From: Sphyrna mokarran
Taxonomy: Eukaryota
Length of the DNA: 64,000 nucleotides
Assembly (NCBI GenBank): GCA_024679065.1
Contig: JAGIQG010000003.1
Span: 57,846,001 to 57,910,000, forward strand
Reading direction: 5' to 3'
Part shown: positions 2,687 to 55,550 of the stretch, piece by piece
How the letters are laid out: each line of letters starts with the position of its first letter
Position numbering within the stretch: position 1 is the stretch's first letter
Translations under genes and position numbers: made by a program
Notes under the pieces: model-generated
Seen by the model: the letters and a program-made list of their open reading frames with translations, nothing else
What the model was told of the DNA's origin: nothing
The model's database searches: none

Positions 2687-4794
2687 GCAGACAAAGGAGG
2701 CGCCATCGTCATACTGAACAGAACGGACTACTGTGAAGAAGTGTACCGACAACTAAACAATGTGAAACACTACAGACAATTACCAGCAGATCCAACCAAA
2801 GAACACACTCGTCAACTCAACACTCTGATCAAAACCTTTGATCCGGACTTTCAGAACAGCCTCCAGGCTCTCATTCCACGTACTCCCTGCATTGGAGATC
2901 TCTACTGCCTCCCAAAGATACACAAGGCAAACATACCCGGCCGTCCCATCATATCAGGCAATGGGACCCTGTGTGAGAACCTCTCTGGCTATATCGAGGG
3001 CATCCTGAAACCCATTGTACAAAGAACCCTCAGCTTTTGTCGTGACACTACGGACTTCCTACAGAAACTCAGCACACATGGAGCAGTTGAACCAGGGACA
3101 CTCCTTGTCACAATGGATGTCTCGGCGCTCTACACCAACATCCCCCATAACGATGGTATTGCTGCAACTGCCTCAGTACTCAATGCCAACAACTGCCAGT
3201 TTCCAGATGCAATTTTACAACTCATCCGCTTCATCTTGGACCACAATGTCTTCACCTTCAACAATCAGCTTTTCATCCAGACACATGGAACAGCCATGGG
3301 GACCAAATTCCCACCTCAGTATGCCAACATCTTCATACACAGCTTCGAACAAGACTTCTTTACCACACGAGATCTTCAACCAAGGTTATATACTAGATAC
3401 ATTGATGACATCTTTTTCCTTTGGACTCATGGTGAACAATCATTGAAACAACTGTATGATGATATCAACAAGTTCCATCCCACCATCAGACTCACCATGA
3501 ACTATTCTCCAGAATCAGTTGCATTCTTGGACACACGCATCTCCATCAAGGACGGTCACCTCAGTACCTCACTGTACCGCAAACCAACAGACAACCTCAC
3601 AATGTTCCACTTTTCCAGCTTCCACCCTAGACACGTTAAAGAAGCCATTCCCTATGGACAAGCCCTCCGTATACACAGAATTTGCTCAGGTGAGGAGGAT
3701 CGTGACAGACACCTCCAGACGCTGAAGGATGCCCTCGTGAGAACAGGATATGGCGCTCGACTCATCGATCAACAGTTCCGACGTGCCACAGTGATAAACC
3801 GCACTGACCTCCTCAGAAGACGAACATGGGACACGGTGGACAGAGTACCCTTTGTTGTCCAGTACTTCCCTGGAGCGGAGAAGCTATGACATCTTCTCCA
3901 GAGTCTTCAACATATCATTGATGACGATGAACATCTCGCTAGGGCCATCCCCACCTCCCCACTTCTTGCTTTCAGACAACCGCACAACCTCAAACAGATC
4001 ATTGTTCGCAGCAAACTACCCAACCTTCAGGAGAACAGTGACCACAATACCACACAACCCTGCCACAGCAAACTCTGCAAGACATGCCGGATCATAGACA
4101 TGGACGACATCATCAAACGTGAGGATACCATTCACCAGGTACACGATACATACACTTGCAACTCGGCCAACGTTGTCTACCTAATACGTTGCAAGAAAGG
4201 ATGTCCCGAAGCATGGTACATTGGGGAGACCATGCAGACACTACGACATCGGATGAATGAGCATCGCTCAACAATCACCAGGCAAAACAGTTCCCTTCCT
4301 GTGGGCGAACACTTCAGCAGTCATGGGCATTCGGCCTCCGACCTGCGGGTAAATGTTCTTCAAGGAGGCCTTCGTGACACACGACAGCGCAGAGTTGCTG
4401 AGCAGAGACTGATAGCCAAGTTCCGCACACATGAGGACGGTCTTAACAGGGATCTTGGCGTCATGTCACACTATCTGTAACCCCCGTAACTTGCCTGGAT
4501 TAGCAAAAAACCTCACTTACTGTGCTGTCTGGAGAAAATACACAATTCTCTAACCAATGCTCAGGATTCCCTTCACACACATTGTTTGCCACTTTAACAC
4601 TTGAATAGCAGGTTAGATGTAAGGATTCGCATTCTAATCAGCAATCTGTGACTGTCTGTGTTGATATGTGTGCTACTGCAGACCAGAACATTGCATTTGC
4701 CTGATGAAGACAGAAAGTCGAAAGCTCGCAAATTTGCTATCAAATAAATCGGTTGGATTTACAATTGGTGTTGCTAGATTCTTACTGAGTTCTT
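2687..4794 (+). mobile_element. Penelope-like retroelement (Neptune-type), 5'-truncated, RT + GIY-YIG endonuclease + 3' non-coding region
   Basis: One reading frame 2687-4480 with ADKGG, LPKIHK...GRPII, DVSALYTNIP, GTAMG, RYIDD, FLD, a Cys-rich linker PCHSKLCKTC, and VVYLIRC...WYIGET...R..EH...HF...H GIY-YIG/CCHH features; broken only by TGA at 3887-3889. Confidence 0.95.
4695..4733 (+). ncRNA. Minimal type I hammerhead ribozyme in the PLE 3' region
   Basis: ATTTGC-CTGATGA-A-GAC(AGAAA)GTC-GAAA-GC-TC-GCAAAT: 6-bp stem I, both core boxes, stem II hairpin, palindromic AGCT in place of stem III, UC cleavage site. Confidence 0.85.
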
Positions 4795-4810
4795 TCTGCA
4801 TAACAGCAGA

Positions 4811-17899: not shown

Positions 17900-17990
17900 A
17901 CACATTCACCTGACGAAGGAGCAGCATTTTGAAAGCTTGTGATTCCAAATAAACCTAGATTTTAACCTGGTGTTGTGAGACTTCTTGCTG
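17900..17990 (+). mobile_element. Short PLE-related terminal repeat with HHR motif
   Basis: TCAC-CTGACGA-A-GGAGCAGCATTTT-GAAA-GC-TT-GTGA followed by AAATAAACC...TTTAACCTGGTGTTGTGAGACTTCTT, as in the arrays at 21328-22220. Confidence 0.75.
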
Positions 17991-18410: not shown

Positions 18411-21262
18411 TGTAATATATCAAGGACGACTCAGTGTAGCTTTAACACTTAAGACTTTATTGCCAAAAGAATAAATAGATAAATGTTCAACAAGGTAAGA
18501 CTAGATTACAAATGGGATTGCTCTACTTGACTCCCTAGCCCCAACTGTGTGTTATACCTCGACCCGTGGTCCTCACCCTCTGCCCATTGGCTCTGCTCCC
18601 CATCAAGGTGATCTATATGGTCCTTGCTGATCATGTGGCCCTCAGGAAACACTCCAACCCCCTCTCCCCTTAAAGGACCATGCTACTATACTCTTTCCCC
18701 CTAAAATCCAAAACACTTCTAAGAAGAAACTTAGAAGGCACAAAACAGGCTCTTATACCAAAAGAGCATCAGAAAAAACCTCTGGAAAACTCAAAGTTTC
18801 AAAAGATAGGGAGCCTCAGTTTGGTGCCCAGCTCATCTGCATTTATAGGACCAAATCGAACAGACAAGGATGGCTGGCCTATTCTTCCTGGATTTAAGGC
18901 TGTTTGCAGCTTCAGAATCTTTGTCTTCCCGACCACAGATTGCTCAAGTCCCACATTCGCCACTGAAATCCCAGTAGTCAGACCTGGCAACTTTGAGCTA
19001 TCTGCAGTGATCGCCTGGGGATCCTCTATGTCCGTTATGGCTCTCCTCTTCAGATGGTCCATGTATGAACTAAGTCTGCAGCATTGTATCTCCATGACAT
19101 AGGAGACCGGTGCTGCTGTCTCGCCAACTGTTTACCAGCCACCCATACTGGGCCTGCTGCGAAGTTTCTAACCAAGACAGTATCCTCCACTTTAAAAATT
19201 AGTTTCTTTCCGCATTGTGATTTATATTCTGGGACGCTTGCCTAGTTTCCACACTCCACACCAAATTTGAGAACATTATGTTCAATCCTAATCCCCTTTG
19301 TAACCAACATCATATCAGTAACTCGGTGGTCACGTTCAGAGTGGTTTTTATATGATAACAGAAAACTGACTGTGTGTAAATCAGGTGTTTTTTCCTTGAT
19401 TACTTAAATATCTGTACTGCTCTATCTGCCAGCCCATTTGATGTCGGGTACTAAGGCGCCAACTTCGCATAGCGAATGCCATTGGACTTCAGAAAACTTT
19501 GGAATTCTTCTGCCATGAATAATGCACCATCATCTGACACAACCACTTCTGGAATGTCATAGATAGCAAATATCTTCCTTAATTCATCAATGGTGGCTAT
19601 AATGTTGTAGATATCAACTGCATATCTCATCACTTGGATTGTACATCTACTAGCATGAGAAACATATGATCCATAAAGGACCCAGCAAAATCTACATGTA
19701 ACCTACACGGATGGCCAGCCCACTTACATGGATGCAAATTTGCTGGCGGTGGTAAAATTTGTCGAACTTTGCAACTAGGACAATGACTAACTATCCGTTC
19801 TATTTCTTTGTCAATACTCGGTCACCACACATAATACCTGGCTAGGGCCTTCATTCTACTCTGACCTGGATGAGAGTCATGTAATTGTCCTTTGGGTGGG
19901 GCTATAATTCTCCCCACTGACCTTCTACTTTGGCAGAGTTTTAACAACCGTGGTTTCTCATACTGCTCACCCTTGCATGACCATTGTCTTTACCTTCACC
20001 AATACAGGGTTTCTTTCTATCCATATGCTTATGTGTTTTACCGAGACTGACAAGCTGTCTGCCAAATGCAGAGCCAGAATAATCTCTTAAGGAATTGGTG
20101 ATGATGTTACTGCTTCTGGCACTGGTAATGTGTCTGCATTCCAGGACGATGCTGTTATGTATAACTGTAGGAAGCAATTGGTGGCACTAGCTTATCTTCT
20201 CTGAAAAGATCAAACAATGGCTTGAGATCTGAGAATATTGTAAATTGTTAGCCGTAAATATACTTGATGGATGAAGAATATTTGAGTACTTGATGGAGTT
20301 TAGAAGGATAAGAGAGGATCTCATTGAAACATAGAGAATAATGAAAGGCGGGGATACTGTGGATGTGGGGTAGATGTTTCCAATTGTTGGAGGAGACTAG
20401 GATCTGAGGGCATAGCCTCAAAGTAAAGGGGCAACCATTTAGAACTGAGATGAAGAGTAATTTCTTGAACCAGAGGATGGTGAATCTATGGAATTCATTG
20501 CCACAAAAGACTGTGGAGGTCAGGTTATTGAATGCATTTGAGACAGAGATAGCAGGTTCTTGATTGGTAATAGGATCAAGGGTTACAGAGATAAGACGGA
20601 AGAATGGGATTAAGAAACTTATTAGCCATGATTGAATGGCAGAGTAGACCCAATGGGCTGAATGGCTTAATTTTGCTCCTGCAGTTTATTCTGACGGAAC
20701 TTTTTGATCACATAAATGACAGCCAGACTTTCCTTGTCTATTTGGTGCATTTCCTCTCTGTGTTGAATAACGTTCTTGAAGCAAAGGCAATTAAGCATCT
20801 GGTGGGATAGAACTGTTCCCACTTCATACCGTGAAGCATTGCAATCCACTATTAAGGATTTGTTTAGGTCAAAATGCATCAACATTTAACTTTGGAAAAA
20901 GTTTTTTTCTGTTCTTCTCCCCATTTCTATCTTTGGATTTTTTTTAACAGTTGGTGAAGTGAGGCTAAAATGGTAGATATGTCTTTTTAAAATTCTTTCG
21001 CAGAAATGATTTCAGCTCAGATTTATCTTTTGGATGTGGGATCTCCTTGATAGTTTTTACCTTTTCTTCAAAAGGATGTTGATCCTTCAAATCGACTCTG
21101 AATCCTGAGTAGGTAACTTCTTTTGAATGAAATATACATATTTCCTGCTTCAATCTATCCCTGCTTCCTTAAACCATTTGAATAATTCTTCGGAATTGGA
21201 TTTGCGCTCTTCAGGTGAGGTACCACTGATTAGTATGTCATCCAGATGAATACCATATTGAG
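18411..21262 (-). mobile_element. Gypsy/Ty3 LTR retrotransposon remnant (RT-RNase H-integrase, putative 3' LTR ~18411-18690)
   Basis: Minus-strand peptides CIFHSKEVTYSGFRVD...SELKSFL, HFDLNKSLIVDCNASRYEVGTVLSH, LHVDFAGSF, LRKIFAIYDIPEVVVSDDGALFMAEEFQSFLKSNGI; purine tract AGGGGGAAAGAG next to the LTR-like segment; order RT-RH-IN. Confidence 0.85.
20285..20685 (+). mobile_element. CR1 3' fragment nested in the Gypsy remnant
   Basis: MEFRRIREDLIETYRIMKG; typical CR1 3' UTR ending GGGCTGAATGGC...GCTCCT. Confidence 0.85.
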
Positions 21263-21327
21263 GATACAGAAACAGAAAATGCTGAAGAAACTCAGCAGGT
21301 CTGATAACATCTGTGGAGAGAGAATAG

Positions 21328-22220
21328 AGTAAGAAGTCTCACAATACCAGGTTAAAGTCCAACAGGTTTATTTGGTAGCAAAAGCCACTAGCTTTCAGAA
21401 TGTTGTCCCTTCATCACGCGAGTGGGAGTTCTATTCACAAACAGGGCATATAAAGACACAAACTCAATTTACAAAATAATGGTCTGCTTTCTTGCATCTT
21501 TGTAGAAACTTGACGTCTGTGCCAAATGCGCGGTCTTCTTGGAGATCATCTCCTCTTGGAGAGCCGGCAGTTTGTGGTATCGGTGGTAGTCATGATGTGG
21601 AAACGCCAGTGTTGGACTGGGGTAAGCATAGTAAAAAGCCTCACAACTCCAGATTAAAGTCCAACAGGTTTATTTGGTAACAAAAGCCACTAGTTTTCAG
21701 AGTGCTGTCCCTTTGTCAGGTGAGTGGGAATAACGATATGGTGAATAACGATCTCCAAGAAGATCATGCATATCGGCACAGACATCAAGTTTCTACAAGG
21801 ATGCAAGAAAGCAGACCATTATTTTGTAAATTGAGTTTGTGTCTTTATATGCCCTGTTTGTGAATAGAACTCCCACTAACCTGACAAAAGGACAGCGCTC
21901 TGAAAGCTAGTGGCTTTTGCTACCAAATAAATCTGTTGGGCTTTAGCCTGGTGTTGTGAGACTATATGGTGAATAACGATCTCCAAGAAGATCATGCATA
22001 TCGGCACAGACATCAAGTTTCTACAAGGATGCAAGAAAGCAGACCATTATTTTGTAAATTGAGTTTGTGTCTTTATATGCCCTGTTTGTGAATAGAACTC
22101 CCACTAACCTGACAAAAGGACAGCGCTCTGAAAGCTAGTGGCTTTTGCTACCAAATAAATCTGTTGGGCTTTAGCCTGGTGTTGTGAGACTTCAGTTCTA
22201 CGCCGGCATCTCCACATCAT
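21328..22220. repeat. Compound inverted + tandem array of a short PLE-related, HHR-bearing unit
   Basis: Two minus-oriented units (starts 21328 and 21630, ~302 nt period) followed by two plus-oriented 228-nt copies (21736-21963, 21964-22191); flanked by AGAGAATAGAG (21319-21329) / AGAGAATAAAG (22224-22234). Confidence 0.85.
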
Positions 22221-23034
22221 GAAAGAGAATAAAGCCAATGTTTTGAGTCTTGAATCCTGCAGATTTAAAGGCAAAATGCCCAATTGGAGTAAAAAGATTT
22301 GCTCCCCTATAATAGGCTACAGCTGGAGGGAGCTTCAGCCAGAATGAGAATATTGGAAATTTGGAGCTATGCGGAAATTCAATGCTGAGGGGAAAGGGGT
22401 GCTCACCTTCGGGAGGAATGGAAAGGCAGACCTGCAAGGGAGATTTGAGGGCAAGAGAGAAATAGGAAGAAATCGAACATGACATCACAGCCAGCAGTTA
22501 AGGAGTTTTTCTTTTTTTTCTTTTTTTGTCTCTCGGCATTGTAGTTTTTGTTAAATGAACTTAAGGATTAAGTCATTGCAAGAAATTCCAGATCCTTGTC
22601 ATGCTCCTCTTGTGTGACGTAGGAATTAAGAGACCATTCTGCTGCCCCTGACTCCTTCGTGTGCGAGAAATGTGTCCAACTGCAGCTTCTTTTAGACCAC
22701 TTAACAGTTCTAGAGCTGTGGATAGATTCACTTTGGTGCATCCACAGTGCTGAGGAAGTTATGGAGTCATGAAGTCAGTGAGTTGGTCACAACACAGCTA
22801 AAAGTTACTGAAGGAGAAGGGTAACCATCAGATAGAGGAAGTGTAGGGGCCCCCTTCAGGCATCTCCCTCCAAAACAGATATACCATTTTAGATATTGTT
22901 GGGCGAAATGATTCACGTGGGGAAGGAGCAGCAGCCTGGTTCATGGTACTGTAGCTGGCTCTATTGCACAAGATGGCAGGAAAAGAGTGGCAGAACTATA
23001 GTGATAGGGGATTCGAAGATAAGGGGAATAGACA

Positions 23035-34253: not shown

Positions 34254-35249
34254 GACATCTTTTACCAATCAGAGGCTAGGGCTGGATCCAGATATAAAAT
34301 GGATCCAAACCCGGAATCCCCGTTCCAGCACGCCCATACGCCTTTTGCCGGCTCAGATGGATCTCTCGTTGAAGAGTGGTGTGAAGATTCTCCCAAGTCT
34401 ATCCTCCCCCCAATTCTCCACCACCTGCCCACCAACCAGAGATCCATCTGAGCTCGTCCCCTCTTGCAGCAGACACCAGCAGAAGGCCAGGAAGGTGCTG
34501 CAGGCTGTCCAGCAAGTCCAGTAAGAAGTCTCACAACACCCAGTTAAAGTCCAGTTAGACTAGTGTTGTAAGACTCCTTACTGTGTTCACCCCAGTCCAA
34601 CGCCGGCATTTCCACATCGATGGTTGGTCAGAAGAATGGTGGAGGAAAACTGAGGTAGGTTGAGGGTATGCTCTGCCTCCTGGGGAAGGGGTCTGATCAT
34701 GGGAGGGGTGTCTGCCTCCTGGAAGGGTCTGACAGTGAGGGTGGGGGGGATAGTTTGCCAGGGGCCTGCCTCCCGGCAGTTTTGATTGCAGGGGTGTGTG
34801 CTCTGCCGAACGGGCTTGCTTCCCTGGGGGGGGTCTGATCAGAGAGGGGGGATATGCCGGGGGGGCGTCTATCTCCCAGGAGGTTCGGATCATGGGGCGA
34901 GGGTCTGCTGGCGTGGTTAGTGGGGGGTCTGCGAATGAGGAGGATGGCCTTTGGAGGTTCACCTGCATAATAGGAATCCGCTTCGGATTTTTATTCTACA
35001 GGTTAGTAACAGTGCAGATCCGAAGACGGTAAAGTGGGATTTGGCAGTAGAATTGGGCGCGCAGTTCATTAAGTCAATTTAAATGCACGCTAATGATTGA
35101 GGCGCGGACCGGATCTGCGCCCAAATCGGGTGTCGGTAAAGGCACGATTTGCTCGGTTTCGGGTGCAGATCGCATTACAGGCCCAGTGCCCGAATTTACC
35201 ACAATTTCGCGCCTGAAAACCAGAGCGAATTTTTGGTAAAATCGGGACC
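34254..35249. mobile_element. Non-autonomous Harbinger-like DNA transposon containing a PLE-repeat hairpin insertion
   Basis: Ends TTTTACCAA / TTGGTAAAA; G-rich internal repeats like 28727-29634; 34520-34620 is a fold-back of the short PLE-related repeat. Confidence 0.6.
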
Positions 35250-35485
35250 CTGCGGCCATGAAAGGGGGCACAGCTCAGTCTCTCCCTTCAATCCTGCACT
35301 ATGAGGAAAAACTGTGATAACAGTTCTGCAATTCCAAAGGGGCCAGGATCAGAAGTCCAAGTCAGAAATGCAAAACACCATGTTAGTGAAAAGAAATTTG
35401 GAACAGGCTGACAATCTGATGGTAATGGCCATTCCTTGGAAGATTCTGCTGGTTGATTATGTTGAATTTAATCAATGCTATCAGC

Positions 35486-35688
35486 AGTCTCACAACACAA
35501 GATTAAAGTCCAACACGTTTAGTTGGAATCACAAGTTTTCACAGTGCAGCTCTTTTATCACTCACCTGATGAAGGAGCAACACTTCAAAAGCTCATGATT
35601 CCAACTAAACCTGTTATACTTTAACCTGCTGTTGTGAGACTATTTACTGTGTCCACCCTAGTCCAATGCTGACATCGCCACATCATGA
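35486..35688. repeat. Palindromic (head-to-head) copy of the short HHR-bearing PLE-related repeat
   Basis: AGTCTCACAACA...TTGGAATCAC mirrored by GATTCCAACTAAACCTGTT...TGTTGTGAGACT; central CACCTGATGAAGGAGC; ends CAATGCTGACATCGCCACATCATG. Confidence 0.8.
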
Positions 35689-37904
35689 TTAATCAACACC
35701 GAGTAAGTAGATTCTCCATTGATAAGGGAGTCAAGTGTTTTGGCAGGAGGCTAGAAAGATAGATCTCATTCAGGTCATCCATGATCTTTTCAAATGGAGC
35801 AGCATGTTGTACAGGCCAAATGACCTACATCTGCTTTTAATTTGTCTGTTTGTACAATGTATGAAAGAAAGAAGAGATCTGAAAGGGCCTTGTATGTTTG
35901 ACATAATGGGTTTAGCAAGACCACATGGCAAAGGTTAAGGAGGTGACTGTGAAAATGACTTGGGGAGTTTATGTGGAAGGGGGGATAAAGAGAGGGTTAG
36001 AGGGTGGTGAACATATAGGAGAAAGAACATGTTGAACTGAGATAGAGATAGAAACAATTTAGGATAAGATATTTCTCAGTGTAGAGGCTGAAGGAAGACT
36101 GAGGATAGTTTTTTGAGAAAGTTGACATGCTACTTGGGTTGGTGAGCTACTATCCAGCTGGTGAGCTGGACTACTGTCCAGCTGCAGAGTTAGGAAACTC
36201 TTCTCCCCTGTTCTGCTCAATCTGGTCTTCCTCCATCTGAAGAAATCAACAGACCTCCCCTCTGAGCACACGTTTACGTACTGTATTTCGAGGAGTTAAT
36301 GGTTTATAGTATGTCCACCATTGGTTCAAAGCCATGTGACCAACTACTGAGGGATAGGGATCCAAGGTATAGCCTCCTCTTCCTGTCCATGGCTACATCT
36401 TGAGGCCGTTGCTCAACTTAACTGATGCTGGGTGCCATTTGTTAAATCCTGCCAGACACTTGTCCACATAAGATTCAATCCTATCAATCTAGGAATGTCA
36501 ATGTGAACGCCCTCTCCAGAGGATCTTGTGACGTGAGGATATTGACAAAACCGTTCTCCTTAGATGTTATCTTTGTTTCCCTCTGTCAGTGACTGCTAAG
36601 AGACTGAGACAGAAAATAAACAACCTTCAGTCAGACAATCACAATACTATGCCTGCTAATTCTATAATATTGTTAAAGATACCATTTTTTACACCGATGC
36701 TGAGGACACTGCAATATTTAATGTGTCACCTTCAAATTAAGTCTGATCTACCAGTTCAAGTGCATATTAAAGATCTATTGATTCTAAAAGAGGTTCTGCT
36801 AGATTTCCGCTCCCCTTTCTCAACCAACATCAGCAATAAACATAGATTGACTGGTCCTTCAGCGGTTGTGGAATCCTCATTATGTTTGTCTACATGGCAG
36901 CTGTCACCGTACACCAGGAGTAAGACGTGAATAATTTTGAGATGATTTGACATGAAATGGCACAAGATAAATTGCAGCCATTGTTTTACAGTTAAATTAA
37001 GAAAAGAATTATCAAGGACATACAAAAAACAGCAGTATTGAAGTCCAACACTAATTGAAAAGTACATCAACCTATTGATTAAGTGTTCACCATCCATTGC
37101 AGAATTACTTCATATTGATCTTTCGTCAATATACATCAGTAATATTTTTTAAATCATGATGTTGTCAGAAATGCTTGCTTTTTTTTGGAGTAGAATAATG
37201 CACAGTCTGTTTTATTTCTATGTTTGTTTCATGCAGGACTGGTAAATTTAAACGTAGGTTTAGTTTTTTTGAAAATGTAGCATAAAGTGGCACAACAGAG
37301 TGATTTACTATAAGAATTTAACAGCTATTGTTAACAGGAAGGTACAACTACAATTCCTTCACATTCTGGCCTCCCCGTAGTGTGTTATTGATGGTGGGAA
37401 GCAGTGCACCTTTAGCCGCTGTGGAATTCTCTGGTCAGGAATATTGGTCGGGCCACTGCGTCTCTCTGCTCTGTGCTATGGAATCCTTCATTTCTATCTC
37501 AATTGACAAAGGTAGGCCAGATTTAATCCTCCAGCAGTAAATGGTAGCTTTCACAATACCTCAGTATGGATATTGAAGAATCAGGCTAAATTATTTCTTC
37601 TGTTCCACAAGTGAAGTTTGAACGTGCAACCTTCTGCTTGAGAGGTGAATAATTTCTATTGGAACATTTTGAATGCTGGCACATTTCTATCAAATTCCCT
37701 TCTTTTTTCAGCATTTCCTCTTTCCATTTTTTAACTAAATACTGCTGAAGTGTTCCTCTTTGGAAATAGTCAGAAAACAAAGGTGAAAGTGCAAAATCTC
37801 GACTTCTGCACATTCCTCATCAGAGCTTAAATGGAAGCAGAGTAATCGGTTTACTGATGGCCCTAAGAACAGGGTTTCAATCCCTGGTTCATACTCAACT
37901 CATA

Positions 37905-47070: not shown

Positions 47071-47534
47071 TGCCTCTGAGCAATTTTTGCTGGGAGACAG
47101 GTTTATATTGGCAAAGGCAGGGTTGCCAGGGCGGGGTTGCCAATCATTGAAAATGAAGTGCCCGACGTAGAGCAGAATGATAACACAGTTGGGATTTTTC
47201 TGACAGTAGATGCCTTATCCTTACGGAAAACCCATAAGGTGGTTGAGGGTGGCCTCACACTGAAGGTTGTGGAACCAGTGAAGCTTCACTAAAAGCCCCC
47301 TCACCCTCCCCCAAACTTCTCTGACTCACCTTGGCTTCCAGAAGCACAGCTGCAGCTAGGGGCCACATTGTGAAGCAACCCCATCCTCCACACTGATGGT
47401 CTTATTAAGGCTGTGGCCAAGTTTCATTTTATTAATTCTTTCATTCATCAGAAGTAGCTTCCAGCTTGAGATGCCCATGTCAATTCTTACCGACACTGAC
47501 AGCACACAGCTCTCCTGGTGGATTTGCTAGTTAT

Positions 47535-48343
47535 GATGTAGAGATGCTGGCGTTGGACTGGGGTAGTAAGAACTCAGTAAGAATCTAGCAACACCAATTT
47601 TAAATCCAACCGATTTATTTGATAGTAAATTTGCGAGCTTTTGACCTTTTGCCTTTGTCAGGCAAATGCAGTGTTCTGGTCTGCAATAGCACACATATCA
47701 ACACAGACAGTCACAGATTGCTGATTAGAATGCGAATTCTTACATCTAACCTGCTATTCAAGTGTTAAAGTGGCTAACAATGTGTGTGAAGGGAATCCTG
47801 AGCATTGGTTAGAGAATTGTGTATTTTCTCCAGACAGCACAGTAAGTGAGGTTTTTTGCTACCCCAGGCAAGTCACGGGGGTTACAGATAGTGTGACATG
47901 AAGCCAAGATCCCTGTTATGACCGTCCTCATGTGTGCGGAACTTGGCTATCAGTCTCTGCTCAACGACTCTGCGCTGTCGTGTGTCATGAAGGCCCCCTT
48001 GAAGAACATTTACCCGAAGGTCGGAGGCCGAGTGCCCATGACTGCTGAAGTGTTCGCCCACAGGAAGGGGACTGTTTTGCCTGGTGATTGTTGAGTGATG
48101 CTCATTCATCCGCTGTCGTAGTGTCTGCATGGTCTCCCCAATGTATCATGCTTCGGGACATCCTTTCTTGCAACGTTTTAGGTAGACAACGTTGGCCGAG
48201 TTGCAAGAGTATGTACCGTGTACCTGGTGAATGGTATCCTCACATTTGATAATGTCGTCCATGTCTATGATCCGGCATGTCTTGCAGAGGTTGCTGTGGC
48301 AGGGTTGTGTGGTATTGTGGTCACTGTTCTCCAAATGTTCTCC
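47535..48343 (-). mobile_element. Penelope-like element copy 3 (5'-truncated) with 13-bp TSD and extended 3' tail
   Basis: Highly similar to ~4030-4794; ATTTGCTAGTTAT at 47522-47534 and 48344-48356; HHR at 47629-47667 with decayed core. Confidence 0.93.
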
Positions 48344-55211: not shown

Positions 55212-55550
55212 CATGATGTGGAGATGCCGATGTTGGACTGTGGTGGGCACATTTTGAAGTTTCACAACACAAGGTCAAAGTCCATCAGATTTATTTGGAA
55301 TCATGAGCTTTTGGAGCACTGCTCCTTCATTAGATGAGTGTCAATATGCATGATCTCCTTGGAGATCTTCTCCACTTTAAGCCGGCTTGCAGTGTCAATG
55401 GTAGCCATGATGTGGAAATGCTGCTGTTGGGCTGGAGTGGGCACAGTAAGAAGTCTCATAATACCAGGTTAAAGTCCAAGAAGTTTATTTGGAATCACAA
55501 ACTTTTGAAGCACTGTGCCTTCATCAGGTGGATGCACCTGACGAAGGCAC
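55212..55550 (-). repeat. Tandem (~194-nt period) copies of the short HHR-bearing PLE-related repeat ending in a mini-palindrome
   Basis: CATGATGTGGA.ATG at 55212 and 55406; HHR-like cores on the minus strand near 55300-55337 and 55495-55531; terminal GTGCCTTCATCAGGTG-GATG-CACCTGACGAAGGCAC. Confidence 0.8.

What the first reader, a model, noticed from the sequence alone, without database searches (positions are those of the whole stretch)
21328..22220. Retrozyme-like array: non-coding HHR-bearing units in tandem and inverted orientation
Seen: a ~300-nt unit with an HHR-like motif (CAC-CTGAyrA-A-GG...-GAAA-GC-TA-GTG) repeated in tandem on the minus strand, then flipped into two plus-strand copies, all between an imperfect 11-bp direct repeat. 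There is no coding capacity. Its 3' part (AAATAAA..TGTTGG..TTTA..TGGTGTTG..AGA.TTCTTACT) parallels the coding PLE's 3' end. Known: PLE pseudo-LTRs form tandem and inverted structures, and animal non-LTR retrozymes are short tandem HHR repeats that yield circular RNAs. Inference: a non-autonomous family mobilised by PLE RT, in which HHR-to-HHR cleavage would release ~300-nt monomers. The HHR cores in these particular copies each carry substitutions, so they are probably decayed.
Basis: partly seen in the sequence, partly recalled or inferred. Interest (0 to 1): 0.7.

Follow-up and report, generated by a model that had tools for sequence, protein, structure and literature searches.

The report
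Penelope insertion copied twice around RNA
This 900-base repeat cluster in a shark-like genome is one old insertion of a Penelope-type jumping gene, likely made when its enzyme copied a short scrap of its own RNA, jumped from one end back to the other and kept going; it is not a separate ribozyme family, but it hints at how such families could be born.

Summary
The array is real, but it is not a retrozyme family. Its 302-nt unit is the first 37 codons of a Neptune-type Penelope-like element (PLE) joined to that element's last 190 nt (3' UTR, minimal hammerhead, tail). One unit plus a partial copy face an inverted arm, inside a 14-bp target duplication. The second plus-strand copy is a later exact 228-bp duplication. 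All four hammerhead cores are broken. The exact junction occurs only here; the unjoined UTR has 2,426 exact matches.

In a sample of 84 loci carrying the ORF start, 67 stop at +24 to +136, and 39 join a terminal piece at a locus-specific point. Within a locus, pieces share 5' ends (10 of 39, 1.7 expected) and almost never pass the junction (38 of 39). Only 17 of 39 units hold a whole hammerhead, and 1 starts at its cut site.

Best reading: one insertion event, with two-ended internal priming and end-to-end template jumps on one short RNA. An RNA circle is not excluded. The scan noted similar single loci before. New variant of a known kind.

The parts
21316..21329 (+). Left target-site duplication (14 bp, overlaps the element end by 2 nt)
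   Evidence: 12 of 14 bases match 22221-22234
21328..21481 (-). Left arm, first cDNA stretch: PLE 3' UTR, hammerhead and 3' end (-190..-37; ATG=+1, tail end=-1)
   Evidence: continuous with GIY-YIG ORF in L017, L074, L075
21386..21420 (-). Minimal type I hammerhead, copy A; C3>G, stem mismatches
21482..21593 (-). PLE ORF start +1..+111 (37 codons, decayed), joined to -190 with 2-nt microhomology
21594..21629 (-). 36-nt PLE tail
21630..21729 (-). Partial second turn (-136..-37) with hammerhead copy B (21688-21722; G8>A, G15.2>A)
21730..21749 (.). 20-nt filler at the head-to-head centre; a 10-mer occurs twice (21728-21737, 21743-21752)
   Evidence: sequence
21750..21963 (+). Right arm: ORF about +50..+111 joined to -190..-43; same junction as the left arm; hammerhead copy C 21878-21912 (G8>A)
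21964..22191 (+). Exact 228-bp tandem duplication of 21736-21963 (recent, or an assembly error); hammerhead copy D 22106-22140
22193..22221 (+). Right end: distal part of the tail ending in the ORF's ATG (about 17 nt before it missing)
   Evidence: (I5)
22221..22234 (+). Right target-site duplication
21255..21327 (-). Host repeat split by the insertion (continues at about 22222-22255): decayed end of another hammerhead-like repeat
   Evidence: 25 alignment rows in fetched loci; high depth

Best explanation
The array is a single, dead insertion of a Neptune-type Penelope-like element, likely copied from one short RNA fragment spanning -190 to +111 of the element's own end/start junction. Shown: the unit is ORF start plus terminal repeat of a ~2.98-kb RT+GIY-YIG element; both inverted arms carry the same junction; one outer end is the -37 end and the other the tail; one target duplication brackets everything; the junction is private. 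Inferred steps: (1) the PLE protein holds a short RNA left around its binding site, with 3' end near +111 and 5' end near -190; (2) the endonuclease cuts both strands about 14 bp apart; (3) each DNA end primes reverse transcription internally, one at -37 and one at -1, as shown in vitro for the Anolis PLE (PMC11167929); (4) each cDNA runs off the RNA's 5' end and jumps to its 3' end, making the ORF-start|UTR junction and a partial second turn; (5) the two cDNA ends are joined by end-joining with 20 nt of filler; (6) much later a 228-bp piece was duplicated. The hammerhead is a passenger.
For: Parent element: L074/L075 run from this ORF start through RT and GIY-YIG to this 3' end (Pfam RVT_1 E=6e-8 and GIY-YIG E=2e-4, the latter just under its cut-off, on the window's relative). 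Private junction: 3 exact matches, all in the window, against 2,426 for the unjoined UTR. Unbiased set of 84 ORF-start loci: 67 of 84 stop at +24..+136, where uniform ends would give about 4%. Of 69 short ones, 39 join a terminal piece. Another piece of the same locus starts within 3 nt of the junction point in 10 of 39 (shuffle mean 1.7; 0 of 20,000 shuffles reach 10). No piece passes upstream of it in 38 of 39 (mean 30.5; 0 of 50,000). In loci without a terminal piece, both arms start together in 7 of 13 (mean 2.0, p=0.001). ORF pieces also end directly in host DNA with target duplications (8 of 25 vs 2 of 50 controls), at the same positions (median +77.5 vs +82, p=0.57), so linear RNA 3' ends there served as priming points. 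Inverted loci have one tail end and one -37 end in 17 of 21. Target duplications bracket 13 of 38 composite loci vs 3 of 76 controls. L187 has three slightly different junctions in one locus.
Against: Repeated junctions within a locus are base-identical or nearly so in 8 of 9 loci (window, L004, L011, L012, L158, L181, L182, L186), including apparent 1-2 nt filler in L158 and L182. That fits a pre-joined template (circle or genomic source) better than independent jumps. Blunt junctions show no excess microhomology (mean 0.54 vs 0.65, 13 junctions, p=0.71), so nothing explains such exact repetition in general. In 29 of 39 loci no other piece starts at the junction point. L048 has two different ORF-side ends (+167, +112). 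Breakpoints are read against one mixed-subfamily reference and are good to about 5 nt. All data are fossils 7-15% diverged; no RNA was seen.
Confidence: 0.62

Rival explanations
1. The short RNA fragment was ligated into a covalent circle without the hammerhead's help, and the PLE RT rolled around it from both primed ends.
For: Identical repeated junctions in 8 of 9 multi-junction loci. No microhomology excess, as expected for ligation. The containment result (38 of 39) fits a circle equally well. L182 holds 12 turns of a 42-nt unit.
Against: A circle gives no reason for pieces to stop at the junction point (10 of 39; 7 of 13) or for insertions to start at +b directly in host DNA. L187's junctions vary. 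L182 has repeated unit variants that suggest later local expansion.
Confidence: 0.17
2. One reading: a non-autonomous mini-PLE or retrozyme family. A genomic source with this junction was transcribed, cut hammerhead-to-hammerhead, circularised and re-inserted by PLE RT.
For: Both arms share the junction and 4 non-majority bases. Most core changes fit CpG decay after insertion, so the cores may have been intact then (inference). The same junction position recurs in L072 and L073. Unit size and GC fit the non-LTR retrozyme range (PMC7229834).
Against: No source or sister copy of the same subfamily; L072 and L073 carry different subfamily sequence around the hammerhead and the junction has 2-nt microhomology. 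There are 16 junctions among 19 similar loci. Only 17 of 39 units include a hammerhead and 1 of 39 starts at the cut site. None of 82 loci sampled by the 3' end carries an ORF-start junction (read by eye). The window unit folds no better than shuffles (z=-1.0). All three original copies share a stem II mismatch.
Confidence: 0.12
3. A full-length inverted/tandem PLE insertion lost 2.68 kb by later DNA deletion and was then rearranged locally.
For: Microhomology-mediated deletions of PLE copies are described (PMC3846280, passages). The 228-bp duplication shows local rearrangement here.
Against: It needs the same deletion twice, in opposite arms. Deletion ends would not pile up at +24..+136 in 67 of 84 loci, nor match other 5' ends in the locus.
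Confidence: 0.05

Closest known systems
Complex insertions of EN+ Penelope-like elements: partial tandem, inverted 5'-truncated copy, one-sided 30-40 bp tail (PMC8557442 and PMC3846280, passages read)
   Same: Head-to-head arms, 36-nt tail at one end, target duplication, minimal hammerhead in the terminal repeat, CX4CxxC linker in the parent (Neptune/Nematis type)
   Different: The middle is not a truncated copy plus a full ORF. It is an ORF start of about 110 nt joined to the terminal repeat, and the junction is repeated in both arms. The passages read do not describe this locus-specific junction pattern.
Internal initiation by the Anolis PLE PAc in vitro (Frangieh et al. 2024, PMC11167929; main text read, supplements not)
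   Same: Two initiation sites that bound the tail; both DNA strands cut and extended; weak priming from the RNA 3' end; hammerhead cleavage not needed; RNA needed downstream of the initiation site
   Different: PAc is Poseidon clade with its hammerhead at the ORF start. The main text does not report end-to-end jumps or more-than-unit products.
Animal non-LTR retrozymes (Cervera and de la Pena 2020, PMC7229834, passages; Li, Clavereau and Pollet 2026, bioRxiv 10.64898/2026.07.22.740005, parts 1-3 of 5 read)
   Same: About 300-nt tandem unit with a type I hammerhead, low GC, sequence derived from a PLE terminal repeat
   Different: No family sharing one unit, minimal rather than canonical hammerhead, broken cores, ORF start included, no RNA evidence. 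Li et al. propose birth by local amplification of a terminal repeat; here tandem units appear at insertion.
R2 SIDEs, short internally deleted ribozyme-bearing elements (Eickbush and Eickbush 2012, PMC3414825, passages; authors' names recalled)
   Same: 5' part fused to 3' end of the parent retroelement, ribozyme retained, template jump named as one possible origin
   Different: SIDEs are persistent multi-copy families with active ribozymes at the 5' end; these shark units are one-off products with private junctions.

Membership tests
EN+ Penelope-like element insertion (Neptune type) | Sequence belongs to an element with RT and C-terminal GIY-YIG in one ORF | tested here: met
   both halves of the unit map to the ends of the ~2,980-nt element in L074/L075
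EN+ Penelope-like element insertion (Neptune type) | CX2-5CxxC linker before GIY-YIG | tested here: met
   (L081, L075) and the window ORF at 3890; definition in PMC8557442. Neptune versus Nematis was not resolved by a tree.
EN+ Penelope-like element insertion (Neptune type) | Tandem/inverted pLTRs, one-sided tail, target duplication | tested here: met
Minimal type I hammerhead of PLEs | CUGANGA and GAAA core, extra base between 9 and 10.1, G10.1-C11.1, palindromic 15.2-16.2, short helix I | tested here: met
   Family level: 25 of 67 motif hits keep the core and 12 also keep stems I and II paired (hits were selected by a motif, so column conservation is inflated). Features as listed in PMC4209133.
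Minimal type I hammerhead of PLEs | Intact catalytic core in these copies | tested here: not met
   C3>G in copy A; G8>A in B, C, D
Non-LTR retrozyme | Tandem repeats of 170-400 nt, each with a type I hammerhead | tested here: inconclusive
   1.33 units on the minus strand; the plus-strand dimer is a later 228-bp duplication; no unit has a complete core, so it fails the 'active' criterion of Li et al. 2026
Non-LTR retrozyme | A dispersed family sharing one unit | tested here: not met
   Junction private; 16 junctions in 19 loci; continuous unit lengths 40-495 nt
Non-LTR retrozyme | Non-coding, no ORF-derived sequence | tested here: not met
   First 37 codons of the PLE ORF are present, though decayed
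Non-LTR retrozyme | Expressed as abundant, highly self-paired circular RNA | not testable with these tools
   Only Logan contigs were offered. Folding as a circle: window unit z=-1.0, family-majority unit z=-2.3.
Non-LTR retrozyme | Self-cleavage of the dimer | not testable with these tools
   Needs an in vitro assay
SIDE (short internally deleted element) | 5' and 3' ends of the parent fused | tested here: met
SIDE (short internally deleted element) | Propagates as a multi-copy family | tested here: not met

The most novel reading that the evidence does not exclude
Penelope reverse transcriptase routinely runs more than once around short fragments of its own RNA, by end-to-end jumps or on hammerhead-independent circles. 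A single insertion therefore creates a ready-made tandem array of 40-500 nt units that always include the protein-binding/initiation site and sometimes the hammerhead. This would be the birth step of animal non-LTR retrozymes and of PLE-derived satellites, and it predicts that the enzyme makes concatemeric cDNA from any short RNA carrying the tail region.
Probability: 0.4. Interest if true: 0.72.

Novelty: new variant of a known kind. Interest (0 to 1): 0.45.

Why it matters
How PLEs build their tandem and inverted ends is called undefined in PMC8557442, and how retrozymes arise from them is open in the 2026 preprint. The junction statistics tie all pieces of a composite insertion to one short template, link the two known initiation sites to the two arms, and show that the hammerhead is dispensable. 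Each point can be tested with the existing in vitro PLE system. The locus itself is dead debris.

Tried and rejected
Rfam scan: no hammerhead among 6 weak matches, uninformative for minimal hammerheads. Reads: the 24 runs listed were all contigs; five distinct runs were laid in two calls. They were swamped by tens of thousands of paralogous contigs and could not show circles, expression, whether the 228-bp duplication is real, or an empty site in relatives (related contigs begin at 22221-22222 and fit either state). One search's 12 pattern hits included 3 non-junctions (L060 did not align; L065 and L068 are native UTR variants) and these were dropped. A 'conserved third initiation site at +111' was suggested but is a query-length bias: the unbiased sample has a broad peak, median +78. 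A peak of 5' ends at the hammerhead cut site was sought and not found (1 of 39). No stable fold of the end/start junction was found (z from -1.0 to +0.4). The 5' ends in the 82-locus 3'-end sample mix subfamilies and were not used for statistics. My early guess of Poseidon clade was dropped after the linker motif was found. Six paper searches turned up no description of ORF-start|pLTR junctions shared within a locus. Subscription papers, Repbase/Dfam and the preprint's supplements (its one chondrichthyan's families) could not be seen and may hold it.

Full report
Observation. The window lies in a 2.77-Gb genome whose repeats look shark-like; that label is my recall and agrees with earlier scan notes. 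Repeat finding gives a 302-nt period on the minus strand (21328-21629, plus a 100-nt partial copy), 189-191 nt inverted arms at 92%, and a 228-nt direct pair. The 228-nt pair is exactly identical (21736-21963 = 21964-22191), while the inverted arms differ at 19 of 212 positions and each is about 93% like the family majority. So the insertion is old and the duplication is recent or an assembly error; reads could not decide. A 14-bp repeat with 2 mismatches brackets the whole. All four hammerhead cores are damaged: C3>G in one, G8>A in three. PMC11167929 shows that C3G and G8C abolish cleavage; that G8A does too is my inference from the C3-G8 pair.

What the unit is. Its first 111 nt translate to the start of a PLE ORF that continues in many other loci. 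Its last 190 nt are the 3' UTR, hammerhead, 3' end and 36-nt tail of the same element. Full-length copies L074 and L075 run from this start through RT and GIY-YIG to this end, about 2,980 nt. A CX4CxxC linker places the parent with Neptune/Nematis-type PLEs; no tree was built. With ATG=+1 and the tail end=-1, the unit is +1..+111 joined to -190..-1 across 2 nt of microhomology. The left arm starts at -37, crosses the junction and makes a partial second turn to -136. The right arm starts at the tail end, crosses the same junction and stops near +50. Twenty bases of filler join them.

Is it a family? The 30-nt junction with up to 3 mismatches occurs five times: three in the window and two in loci with different subfamily sequence. 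A tighter pattern finds the window's three and one different junction. The unjoined UTR across the same point has 2,426 exact matches and a 32-nt terminal motif has 9,422. Nineteen loci with similar ~300-nt units, gathered by searches biased towards this unit, show 16 distinct junctions; the two that recur have 2 and 4 nt of microhomology. Of 82 loci taken from the first 100 listed matches of the terminal motif, none carries an ORF-start junction (read by eye against one reference). The unit is thus a rare by-product, not an amplified family.

Population test. All 85 exact matches to a degenerate ORF-start motif (84 loci) were held or fetched and segmented. This sample needs only -4..+24 to be intact. 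67 of 84 ORF pieces stop at +24..+136, against about 4% for uniform ends. Of the 69 that stop by +200, 39 are followed directly by a terminal piece; unit lengths run from 40 to 495 nt. Only 17 of 39 units hold the whole hammerhead, and 1 of 39 starts within 3 nt of its cut site. Three within-locus regularities point to one short template per insertion. First, another piece starts within 3 nt of the junction point in 10 of 39 (shuffle mean 1.7, none of 20,000 shuffles as high). Second, no piece reaches upstream of that point in 38 of 39 (mean 30.5, none of 50,000). Third, in loci without a terminal piece the two arms start together in 7 of 13 (mean 2.0, p=0.001). Of the 30 loci without a called terminal piece, 2 have a very short one. 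Twenty-five were tested for target duplications (5 left out: those 2 and 3 with longer or internal continuations), and 8 have one at the ORF-piece end versus 2 of 50 controls. These ends fall where the junctions fall (p=0.57). Composite loci have target duplications in 13 of 38 versus 3 of 76 controls (L182 left out). Inverted loci pair one tail end with one -37 end in 17 of 21.

Mechanism. Frangieh et al. (PMC11167929, main text) showed that a PLE protein cuts and extends both strands, starts reverse transcription at two internal sites that bound the tail, needs RNA downstream of them, primes weakly from the RNA 3' end, and does not need hammerhead cleavage. The fossils fit this with one addition, which is inferred: on a short RNA the enzyme runs off the 5' end and restarts at the 3' end. 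In vivo template jumps are documented for R2 (PMC3414825, passages). Against this, repeated junctions are the same in 8 of 9 loci and blunt junctions show no microhomology excess, which fits a ligated circle. For linear RNA are the run-off 5' ends, the direct starts at +b, and the three variant junctions of L187. I put linear jumping at 0.62, a hammerhead-independent circle at 0.17, a true retrozyme or SIDE source at 0.12 and later deletion at 0.05. What trims the RNA at +24..+136 is not shown; protection by the bound protein is a guess, and no stable fold was found there.

Comparison. The outer layout is the known inverted-plus-tail PLE insertion (PMC8557442, PMC3846280; passages). The hammerhead matches the minimal type of PMC4209133 (passages), whose authors proposed hammerhead-made circles as templates; the sample here does not show cut-site ends. 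Retrozymes as PLE terminal-repeat derivatives are already proposed, with one chondrichthyan sampled (bioRxiv 10.64898/2026.07.22.740005, parts 1-3 of 5; supplements not seen). The locus fails retrozyme membership on family status and intact cores, but it has the layout from which one could start. Earlier scan notes describe single loci of this type and the two-ended priming hint; they are unchecked AI notes and are not counted as support.

Verdict. The added value is the population pattern that ties tandem, inverted and ORF-start pieces to one short RNA and makes the hammerhead dispensable. New variant of a known kind; interest 0.45.

Noticed in passing
L182:631-1101 (G000:C1326:49724950-49726950): Eleven to twelve tandem copies of a 42-nt unit (-15..+27, tail end plus ATG), with no hammerhead: a minisatellite apparently born from the same process.
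   Followed up: partly
window 21255-21327 and 22222-22255; L020, L041, L146: The insertion split the end of another abundant hammerhead-like repeat in a TC-rich stretch; in three other fetched loci this PLE's end abuts that repeat at nearly the same place (3 of 25 rows). Possible target preference.
   Followed up: partly
ORF-start sample and 3'-end sample: 5' ends cluster at -125..-140, the upstream edge of the hammerhead (8 of 39 junction points; many head-to-head centres), not at its cut site. Subfamily divergence may inflate this in the 3'-end sample.
   Followed up: partly
window 2687-4800: 5'-truncated PLE with RT and GIY-YIG frames separated by one stop, about 80% identical to the parent family, but ending in a different hammerhead variant near 4701 with an intact core.
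   Followed up: partly
window 21374-21395 (minus strand, just after the hammerhead): The bases after the cut site can pair with the GAAAGC core in a short hairpin that would compete with the hammerhead fold; other subfamily copies (L009, L073) lack these bases.
   Followed up: no
L043, L045, L150: The ORF start is joined to internal ORF positions (+144 to +1110, +165 to +1057, +42 to +286), so longer units of the same kind may exist.
   Followed up: no
window 55212-55500, 34520-34618, 35483-35691, 47525-47629, 17903-17989: Further short PLE end fragments in the window; the one at 55212-55530 also includes part of the ORF start.
   Followed up: no
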